Part shown: one piece after another, positions 39,966 to 40,888 of the stretch | How the letters are laid out: each line of letters starts with the position of its first letter | How positions within the stretch are numbered: position 1 is the first letter of the stretch | Translations under genes and position numbers: made by a program | DNA from: Eledone cirrhosa | Lineage: Eukaryota | Length of the DNA stretch: 64,000 bases | Direction: 5' to 3' | Assembly (NCBI GenBank): GCA_964016885.1 | Contig: OZ024740.1 | Coordinates: forward strand, 110,546,001-110,610,000 | The notes under the pieces: generated by a model | Database searches by the model: none | Told to the model about the DNA's origin: nothing | Seen by the model: only the letters and a program-made list of their open reading frames with translations

Positions 39966-40888
39966 GAATAAGGTTAATATATATCTGAGGGTACAATGTA
40001 CCCCCGGAAATATATAGTGTGTCTATGATTTAAGGTGGTTCTATGGTAATAATTTGATATACCAGAACTTAAGATCAAGATAAGCAGAACAAGTAAAATT
40101 CAACCAATTTTTCAAAATAAATCAAAATTAATATACAATTAAAATTAATCAAAATTAAAAAATATAATATAAATATTTACCTATTCAAATGGCCCTAACT
40201 GTACAGTTTCACGGTGCAAAACATTAGATATCACGTAGATATTAGGGCCATTTGAATAGGTAAATATTTATATTATATTTTTTAATTTTGATTAATTTTA
40301 ATTGTATATTAATTTTGATTTATTTTGAAAAATTGGTTGAATTTTACTTGTTCTGCTTATCTTGATATTAAGTTCTGGTATATCAAATTATTACCATCGA
40401 ACCACCTTAAATCATAGACGCACTATATATTTCCGGGGGTACATTGTACCCTCAGATATATATTAACCTTATTCAATATTCTCCAGTATGTAGAGAAAAA
40501 TCTTGTCGTTCTATTTAGTTACTAAAAATCTTTTTTGGTGGCGATCATAGACGGCTAGTCTATGATTTCCCGCCTTCACTATACACCAACGTATTTATGG
40601 GTCACTTTCACGACCTTTCAGACCTGTATTAGTTGGAGTGAGGTCATATATTTTATTGTTCCTGGGGTTTTTAACCCTAGGATAGGAAAATGCTTCTCTG
40701 ATGATCTTTGCTTTTCCATTAATATCTACGTGATATCTAATGTTTTGTAAAGTGAAACTGTACAGTAAGGGCCATTTGAATAGGTAAATATTTATATATT
40801 TTTTAATTTTGATTAATTTTAATTGTATATTAATTTTGATTTATTTTGAAAAATTGGTTGAATTTTACTTGTTCTGCTTATCTTGATA
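39966..40888 (+). mobile_element. Retrozyme/PLE-pLTR-like element: inverted arm plus partial tandem (period 524 bp)
   Basis: 39966-40198 is the reverse complement of 40243-40474; agggccatttgaatagg recurs at 40244 and 40768. Confidence 0.85.
40688..40777 (+). ncRNA. Type I hammerhead ribozyme motif
   Basis: AAATGCTTCT CTGATGA TCTTTGC..GTAAAGT GAAA CTGTACAG TA AGGGCCATTT. Confidence 0.8.

What the first reader, a model, noticed from the sequence alone, without database searches (positions are those of the whole stretch)
39966..40888. Non-coding element combining an inverted arm and a tandem repeat that restarts at the predicted cleavage site
Seen: the forward tandem starts at ~40243 with (T)AGGGCCATTTG, which is the sequence immediately 3' of the predicted GUA cleavage site (40767/40768), giving a 524-nt cleavage-to-cleavage monomer. 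An inverted partial copy precedes it and extends into the HHR. Inference: the integrated copy records an RNA whose 5' end was made by self-cleavage, in the inverted-plus-tandem layout known for PLE pseudo-LTRs.
Basis: partly seen in the sequence, partly recalled or inferred. Interest (0 to 1): 0.8.

Follow-up and report, generated by a model that had tools for sequence, protein, structure and literature searches.

The report
Hammerhead retrozyme pasted by Penelope machinery
This is one of more than 300 copies of a non-coding 524-base repeat that carries a predicted self-cutting hammerhead RNA and was likely pasted into AT repeats by a Penelope-type transposon from two fixed start points; its restart at the predicted cut site is rare among the copies and may be chance.

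Summary
The anatomy is real: an inverted arm (39961-40244), a 524-nt unit (40244-40767) ending in a hammerhead with a predicted cut at 40767/8, and 122 nt of a second unit, all inside (TA)n. It is one of at least 328 copies of a non-coding family. Compensatory changes support the ribozyme fold, which is atypical (U·U at 10.1·11.1, 35-nt insert in loop II, palindromic helix III). Outer ends are fixed at unit +125 (A) or +229/236 (B); 60 of 68 inversions pair A with B, none A with A. An autonomous Neptune-type Penelope family in this genome follows the same two-end rule in (TA)n. Units and arms within one insertion share alleles, pointing to one RNA sequence per event, possibly a circle. This copy holds one complete ribozyme and cannot release the monomer itself. 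Verdict: non-LTR retrozyme variant, likely Neptune-mobilised; no partner, RNA or cleavage shown.

The parts
39909..39948 (.). Perfect 40-bp palindrome of flank plus (TA)n just left of the element; possible fold-back at the target (inferred)
   Evidence: 39909-39948 self-match, 100%
39945..39965 (.). Left (TA)n target tract; overlaps the outer end of the inverted arm
39961..40244 (-). Inverted arm, 284 nt: starts at fixed end B (unit +236), reads through an intact cut site (GUU type) and stops at unit +477 inside loop II
40242..40245 (.). Inversion junction; 1-3 nt microhomology, forward start between unit -2 and +2
40244..40767 (+). Full 524-nt non-coding unit, 31% GC, folds far better than shuffles (z -5.6, 40 shuffles)
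   Evidence: no ORF of 150 aa or more here
40365..40368 (+). Fixed end A (unit +122..+125, ATAT after a pyrimidine tract), internal copy
40360..40466 (+). Two predicted hairpins between ends A and B; candidate protein-binding signal (inferred)
40472..40479 (+). Fixed end B (unit +229..+236), internal copy; A-to-B segment is a 105-110 nt 'tail'
40685..40772 (+). Type I hammerhead variant: GGAAAA 40685-90; helix I 40692-97 with 40768-72; CUGAUGA 40698-704; U 40705 opposite U 40753; helix II 40706-11 with 40747-52; loop II insert 40712-46 (UUUUCC plus hairpin); GAAA 40754-57; palindromic helix III 40757-66; predicted cut 40767/40768
40768..40889 (+). Partial second unit (+1..+125) ending at fixed end A
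40886..40909 (.). Right (TA)n target tract

Best explanation
This is a dispersed, non-coding, hammerhead-bearing tandem repeat (a non-LTR retrozyme) that was likely inserted in trans by the reverse transcriptase-endonuclease of a TA-targeting Neptune-type Penelope element. Shown: at least 328 copies; TA flanks; two fixed outer ends (A +125, B +229/236); scattered inner ends; inversions pair A with B; units and arms of one insertion carry the same alleles; most arms read through one or more intact cut sites. Inferred: the enzyme cuts both strands of (TA)n; one 3′ end primes at A and, in about 3 of 10 events, the other primes at B, each through a few bases of AT microhomology; both copy the same RNA sequence, probably a circular monomer or an uncut multimer from one source; the two cDNAs stop at variable places and join by microhomology, giving the head-to-head inversion. 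The ribozyme would act earlier, cutting multi-unit transcripts as a dimer to make monomers and circles. In this copy the A-primed cDNA stopped at the cut site, either by running off a cleaved or nicked RNA (about 0.45) or by chance.
For: Copy number and fixed A end: (328, control 0). Fixed B end. A+B in 60 of 68 independent inversions, A+A 0, B+B 1, other 7 (counted); in A-selected copies the partner was B in 33 of 39 although exact A junctions (328) outnumber B junctions (54 forward-strand pattern hits). Autonomous Neptune-type family (RT + GIY-YIG; CX4CxxC before GIY-YIG) has a minimal hammerhead, ends at cut+76 and cut+143 in (TA)n, and pairs them in 3 of 3 inversions seen (L229, L233, L235). 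Shared-polymorphism differences: 0.16% within arms (70 pairs), 0.19% between arms (48 pairs), 4.15% between loci. 159 of 177 A arms cross one cut site, 34 two, 3 three. Ribozyme covariation: 10 of 33 pairs change on both sides, 92.5% of cells paired, slid controls 38-50%. Literature: two internal RT start sites define the PLE tail and both target strands are extended in vitro (PMC11167929); retrozymes as non-autonomous PLE derivatives (10.64898/2026.07.22.740005; PMC7229834).
Against: No autonomous element sharing this unit or this ribozyme was found in 70 GIY-YIG stretches examined (some overlapping), out of 150 listed and 10596 candidates; related tandem families occur there only as separate insertions in TA tracts. 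All Neptune-type hammerheads seen are short U3·A8 minimal forms, unlike this one. The core lacks the conserved G10.1-C11.1 pair, the commonest triplet is GUU (107 of 148), and the ribozyme fold is not the minimum-energy fold of the isolated motif (-6.7 vs -14.7 kcal/mol), so activity is uncertain; 8 of 9 predicted Xenopus retrozymes did not cleave in vitro (10.64898/2026.07.22.740005). Allele identity cannot separate a circle from a homogeneous linear multimer. This copy is one of 5 of 48 inversions whose arms differ at two or more shared polymorphisms.
Confidence: 0.78

Rival explanations
1. One reading: template RNAs routinely have a 5′ end made by self-cleavage, so copies restart at the cut site.
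For: Discovery set: 23 of 123 A arms end in -1..+35 vs 8-12 expected, best of 88 windows, B arms 6 of 69 vs 5.2. Exact restarts: this copy, L098, L063, L071/72, L134, L136; controls 1 and 1 real junctions.
Against: Pre-set replication: 3 of 54 vs 5.5 expected, 0 at +/-1; pooled scan statistic not significant (25% of 2000 simulations as extreme); 151 of 177 arms end elsewhere; 159 of 177 read through a cut site. In Anolis, ribozyme mutants insert normally in vitro and no RNA-seq reads begin or end at the site (PMC11167929).
Confidence: 0.12
2. The ribozyme of this family is a dead or nearly dead relic; the RNA is only a PLE-binding passenger and all 5′ ends, this one included, are random truncations.
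For: U·U at 10.1·11.1; GUU triplet in 107 of 148; helix II has a mismatch in the commonest type; replication failure; a subfamily joint that deletes the 3′ half of the ribozyme is seen at depth about 360 in contigs of three runs of one sample.
Against: CUGAUGA/GAAA, helices I-III and the palindrome are kept with compensatory changes across families 70-85% alike; tandem units are regenerated although only about 23 of 177 arms hold two complete ribozymes (my count), which fits a circle.
Confidence: 0.3
3. Stops near +1 come from reverse transcriptase stalling at the folded ribozyme or at the end of the long +11..+109 hairpin, or from AT microhomology at +13..+35, not from a cut.
For: Predicted long hairpin over +11..+109; five junctions share the ATA at +13; the stretch is very AT-rich.
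Against: B arms cross the same sequence without an excess (6 of 69); +36..+90 is as AT-rich and shows none (14 vs 20.8); the excess itself did not replicate.
Confidence: 0.15
4. A DNA-level repeat (foldback/MITE-like element or satellite spread by recombination in microsatellites), or an assembly artefact.
For: Long inverted arms and (TA)n flanks on both sides.
Against: Only 28 of 97 A-selected copies are inverted; one end fixed and one variable; asymmetric A+B ends; copies on many contigs; contigs of public runs show loose (AT)n ends at 40368 and 40479 (one sample, possibly the assembly's source).
Confidence: 0.03

Closest known systems
Metazoan non-LTR retrozymes (PMC7229834; 10.64898/2026.07.22.740005)
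   Same: Non-coding, low-GC tandem units with one type I hammerhead each, dispersed, monomers to few-mers, co-occurring with PLEs; unit length inside the 51-972 bp range of the 2026 preprint.
   Different: Unit longer than the 150-450 bp of the 2020 paper; atypical ribozyme; strict (TA)n targeting; fixed A/B ends and frequent inversions, which neither main text describes for retrozymes (0 hits for 'inverted' and 'microsatellite' in PMC7229834); expression and circles untested here.
EN+ Penelope-like elements, Neptune clade, pLTR with tail (PMC8557442, PMC3846280, PMC11167929)
   Same: Partial tandem, adjacent inverted 5′-truncated copy, tail at one end only, two internal start sites 3′ of the hammerhead cut, microsatellite targeting.
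   Different: No ORF; tail about 105-110 nt rather than 30-40 bp (67 nt in the resident Neptune-type family); no sequence match to any autonomous pLTR examined.
PLE minimal and dimeric type I hammerheads (PMC4209133)
   Same: Short helix I, palindromic helix III that is stable only between two copies (-13.4 kcal/mol).
   Different: G10.1-C11.1, described there as highly conserved, is U·U here (G-C in two sister families); loop II holds a 35-nt insert with a hairpin and an invariant UUUCC that could pair with a GGAA upstream of helix I.
Pseudoknot hammerhead (PMC11300833, passages read)
   Same: A long-range pairing near helix II is proposed.
   Different: There the pseudoknot replaces helix II; here helix II is intact and covaries, and the extra pairing is invariant, hence unproven.
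L1 twin priming (recalled, no call)
   Same: Both target strands prime, giving an inversion joined by microhomology.
   Different: In L1 the two pieces are non-overlapping parts of one RNA and the second primer lands anywhere; here both start sites are fixed and the arms overlap in sequence.

Membership tests
Non-LTR retrozyme | Head-to-tail units of a few hundred bp, GC below 50%, non-coding | tested here: met
   524 nt, 31% GC; no ORF of 150 aa or more over the element; arrays up to about 2.9 units
Non-LTR retrozyme | One type I hammerhead per unit | tested here: met
   Core boxes and three helices in 148 copies read; covariation; not found by Rfam
Non-LTR retrozyme | Dispersed multi-copy family | tested here: met
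   328 exact A junctions on many contigs
Non-LTR retrozyme | Potentially active locus: two consecutive units with complete ribozymes (criterion of the 2026 preprint) | tested here: not met
   This locus has one complete ribozyme; met by about 23 of 177 family arms (count)
Non-LTR retrozyme | Self-cleavage in vitro | not testable with these tools
   needs transcription assay
Non-LTR retrozyme | Expressed as linear and circular monomer RNA | tested here: inconclusive
   No RNA holder listed; only contigs of unknown kind laid
Canonical or minimal type I hammerhead | CUGANGA and GAAA boxes, NUH triplet | tested here: met
   CUGAUGA, GAAA, GUA here; GUU in 107 of 148
Canonical or minimal type I hammerhead | G10.1-C11.1 closing pair | tested here: not met
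   U·U in this family; paired in 3 of 11 aligned rows (2 G-C, 1 A-U)
Canonical or minimal type I hammerhead | Short palindromic helix III (dimeric form) | tested here: met
   Palindrome kept through double changes in 5 of 11 rows
Autonomous EN+ PLE | ORF with RT and GIY-YIG between pLTRs | tested here: not met
   No ORF in the element; none attached in the copies examined (ORF scan, read by eye)
PLE-mobilised insertion | Partial tandem with 5′ truncation and adjacent inverted copy | tested here: met
   28 of 97 A-selected copies inverted
PLE-mobilised insertion | Tail: two fixed internal 3′ ends, longer one at one side only | tested here: met
   A+B in 60 of 68 inversions; tail 105-110 nt, longer than the published 30-40 bp
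PLE-mobilised insertion | Sequence kinship with the pLTR of a resident autonomous PLE | tested here: inconclusive
   None in 70 GIY-YIG stretches; most candidates not examined
PLE-mobilised insertion | Target-site duplication | not testable with these tools
   Both flanks are (TA)n; no empty allele at hand

The most novel reading that the evidence does not exclude
A superfamily of retrozymes with an undescribed hammerhead variant (U·U in place of G10.1-C11.1, a hairpin-bearing loop II that pairs with the strand upstream of helix I) is copied from a single circular RNA by both strands of a cut (TA)n target, one strand always starting at A and the other at B, and nicking of that circle by its own ribozyme leaves exact restarts such as this one. 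The genome would then hold a countable in vivo record of two-ended, rolling-circle PLE integration and of hammerhead action during it.
Probability: 0.25. Interest if true: 0.72.

Novelty: new variant of a known kind. Interest (0 to 1): 0.46.

Why it matters
How retrozymes move, and what the hammerhead does in the Penelope cycle, are open: the link between the two rests on co-occurrence and pLTR similarity, and in vitro the ribozyme was dispensable for insertion. This family gives a mechanical signature instead: the same two fixed ends, paired the same way in the same target as an autonomous Neptune-type element, and one RNA sequence per insertion. It names a 524-nt RNA, two start sites and a target for a direct assay. 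The headline claim of the finding, a restart made by self-cleavage, is the weakest part, which lowers the score.

Tried and rejected
Rfam: nothing at gathering score in the window; at E<=10 over 39500-44200 only hairpin-type chance matches. RNA evidence: no RNA holder listed; three runs of one sample, kind unknown, gave contigs only, so no ends, strand or level. Excess of 5′ ends just 3′ of the cut: seen in discovery, rejected as robust after the pre-set replication; long-TA selection does not explain the failure, since 7 of the 26 long-TA copies of the discovery set fall in the window (count). A k-mer boundary caller failed on diverged copies; boundaries were then curated from BLAST ends by eye, so a few are uncertain by up to about 20 nt in AT-rich stretches. 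Rows dropped before counts: the window copy; duplicates L072, L130, L181, L189, L266, L291, L317; L125 (too little upstream DNA fetched); L178, L184 (chance pattern hits); L187 (other family); L268, L269 (other arm of L071/72); L267 (internal deletion; kept only in the inversion count); five B-selected loci already in the A set; the 30 loci (biased to full units). Autonomous partner: a Pfam family id I tried is absent from the library; GIY-YIG stretches gave Neptune-type families but no match to this unit; the RT in the window (25523-27553) sits behind an APE-type endonuclease and is an unrelated LINE. Intron idea (+17..+129): 0 spliced junctions against 280 unspliced sites, no such joint in contigs. 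The GGAAAA/UUUUCC pairing never varies, so it is neither supported nor refuted. Earlier findings: none by sequence or by words.

Full report
Setting. The window lies in a 3.0-Gb, AT-rich, microsatellite-rich animal genome (G000). From recall of its repeat landscape it is probably an octopod; no call tested this and nothing below depends on it. Unit positions count from 40244 = +1, the base after the predicted cut.

Observation. The layout is as described: (TA)n, an inverted arm 39961-40244 (unit +236 back through +1 to +477), a full unit 40244-40767, a partial unit 40768-40889 (+1..+125) and (TA)n. The junction bases 40242-40244 belong to the inverted arm and also fit the forward arm, by one base for a GUA-type and three for a GUU-type template, so the restart lies within -2..+2. 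The locus has one complete ribozyme, so its own transcript cannot be cut into the 524-nt monomer.

The ribozyme. Rfam misses it. A descriptor found 148 motifs in the loci then held, some counted twice where loci overlap. In an alignment of 11 motifs from this and sister families, 92.5% of 358 cells pair, 10 of 33 pairs change on both sides, and slid controls give 38-50%; the rows are related and the structure was drawn by me, so the shuffle counts (0-1 of 500 on four of five measures, 370 of 500 on the fifth) are not probabilities. Helix III is a 10-nt palindrome kept through double changes, stable only between two copies, the dimeric design of PMC4209133. Departures: U·U where G10.1-C11.1 is expected, a 35-nt insert in loop II, and GUU as the commonest triplet. 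A GGAA upstream of helix I could pair with the invariant UUUCC of loop II, but it never varies. More diverged families with the same architecture exist. Activity is untested.

The family. An exact 28-base pattern over the 3′ junction has 328 matches, control 0. I fetched the first 100, 26 and 28 loci picked by the second end, and later 60 more. Outer ends sit at A (+125) or B (+229..+236), each a pyrimidine tract ending in a few AT bases that run into (TA)n. Of 97 independent A-selected copies 28 carry an adjacent inverted arm. Over all sets, 60 of 68 independent inversions pair A with B, 1 pairs B with B, 0 pair A with A, 7 have another outer end.

Same rule in an autonomous element. A GIY-YIG search led to a 5-kb element with RT and GIY-YIG, a CX4CxxC motif before the endonuclease as in Neptune and Nematis (PMC8557442), a U3·A8 minimal hammerhead in each pLTR, and ends at cut+76 and cut+143 in (TA)n; 3 of 3 inversions seen pair the two ends. 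This matches the published tail at one end only (PMC8557442, PMC3846280) and the two internal start sites and two-strand extension shown in vitro (PMC11167929). It shows a shared mechanism, not parentage: the unit has no sequence match to the pLTRs in 70 stretches examined, and related tandem families there are separate insertions into TA tracts.

One RNA per insertion. Differences at sites where both alleles are common in the family are 0.16% between tandem units of one arm (25 in 15226 sites, 70 pairs) and 0.19% between the arms of an inversion (19 in 10152 sites, 48 pairs), against 4.15% between loci. Both primers therefore copied the same unit sequence. 159 of 177 A arms cross one cut site, 34 two and 3 three, while only about 23 of 177 hold two complete ribozymes. 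A circular monomer explains this simply; a homogeneous uncut multimer from a few source loci is not excluded. The window copy is among 5 of 48 exceptions: its arms differ at three shared polymorphisms inside the ribozyme.

Does the restart record self-cleavage? Discovery set, window copy excluded: 23 of 123 A arms end in -1..+35 (12.1 expected under uniform hazard, P 0.002; 8-11 under length-dependent hazards), 3 at +/-1 (0.6 expected); B arms 6 of 69 (5.2-5.5 expected). The +35 limit was chosen after looking. I fixed the test in advance and read new copies: 3 of 54 (5.5 expected), none at +/-1; a 2.5-fold excess is rejected at P 0.001; pooled 26 of 177 vs 17.5 (P 0.027), and the best window anywhere is matched by 25% of 2000 simulations. 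What remains: 3 of 64 inverted copies at +/-1 against 0.37, and 6 genome-wide junction matches (5 independent, this copy included) against 2 (1 real) and 1 at control positions with similar detectability; these sets overlap and are small. So a minor run-off route from cleaved RNA is possible, a general rule is not supported.

Mechanism, graded. Shown by sequence: fixed A/B ends, pairing, TA target, scattered inner ends, allele identity, read-through of cut sites. From established knowledge: PLE proteins nick AT-rich DNA on both strands and start at two internal sites; retrozyme transcripts self-cleave and circularise in coral, mussel and axolotl. Inferred: Neptune-type partner (0.7), two-ended priming (0.8), circular template (0.5), active dimeric ribozyme (0.55), cleavage footprint in this copy (0.45).

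Literature seen. 10.64898/2026.07.22.740005: parts 1-3 of 5 (abstract to discussion); its supplements are closed and could list related families, though the text names only three insects and one coral among invertebrates. PMC11167929: parts 1-2 of 4. PMC4209133: parts 1-2 of 4. PMC7229834: passages and sections 14 and 17; 'octopus' and 'cephalopod' do not occur in the main text; supplements not read. PMC8557442, PMC3846280, PMC11300833: passages only. Searches showed no description of this family, this ribozyme variant or a counted A+B rule; Repbase, Dfam and subscription papers were not searchable, so absence from print is not established.

Verdict. Observation confirmed; PLE-type layout supported and extended; cleavage-made 5′ end unproven. 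A new variant of a known kind, interest 0.46.

Noticed in passing
window 42722-43487: A sister family: 485-nt tandem unit, 72% like the finding, same ribozyme architecture with another palindrome; the second ribozyme has a changed GAAA box; ends at its own A site in (TA)n.
   Followed up: partly
window 43586-44075: Inverted pair with a CUGAAGA minimal hammerhead-like motif, 92-95% identical to DNA beside GIY-YIG matches in L203, L239, L241: a pLTR fragment of another PLE family inserted at the TA tract of the sister family.
   Followed up: partly
window 52416-52599: Old 72% fragment of a related unit.
   Followed up: no
window 39909-39948: Perfect 40-bp palindrome made of 12 flank bases and a TA run, next to the B end; may be a fold-back made during insertion.
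   Followed up: no
window 40260-40372 (unit +17..+129): Intron-like stretch (GT at +17, pyrimidine tract, AG at +129, also in the sister family); end A lies 4 nt before the AG. No spliced copy among 280 sites.
   Followed up: partly
window 40721 to 40247 joint in contigs of X1-X3: A variant that skips the 3′ half of the ribozyme through a short direct repeat, at depth about 360 in each run; may be an amplified ribozyme-less subfamily.
   Followed up: no
L224 (G000:C1:145868500-145877500): Near full-length Neptune-type PLE, hammerheads 4979 nt apart, U3·A8 core variant, two fixed ends in (TA)n.
   Followed up: partly
L225 6500-7420, L245 from 1790, L242 870-1210, L262 3180-3450: Further tandem or partial families with long loop II hammerheads (459-nt unit in L225, about 700 nt in L245), often nested in TA tracts at Neptune ends.
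   Followed up: partly
L234 7580-9000, L261 3577-4043: Unrelated tandem hammerhead repeats (about 510 and 466 nt spacing) with short loop II and a CUAG palindrome.
   Followed up: no
L071/L072, L129/L130, L180/L181, L188/L189, L290/L291: Pairs of copies with identical junctions at different places, i.e. duplicated with their flanks.
   Followed up: no
window 24828-28258: LINE with endonuclease/exonuclease/phosphatase and RT domains in three frames.
   Followed up: partly
window 2084-7985: 281 copies of a 21-bp unit with open frames of up to 1467 codons on the minus strand; coding status not tested.
   Followed up: no
window 33981-34411 and 56841-57393: 205-bp tandem units that look like a tRNA-derived SINE (label from recall).
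   Followed up: no
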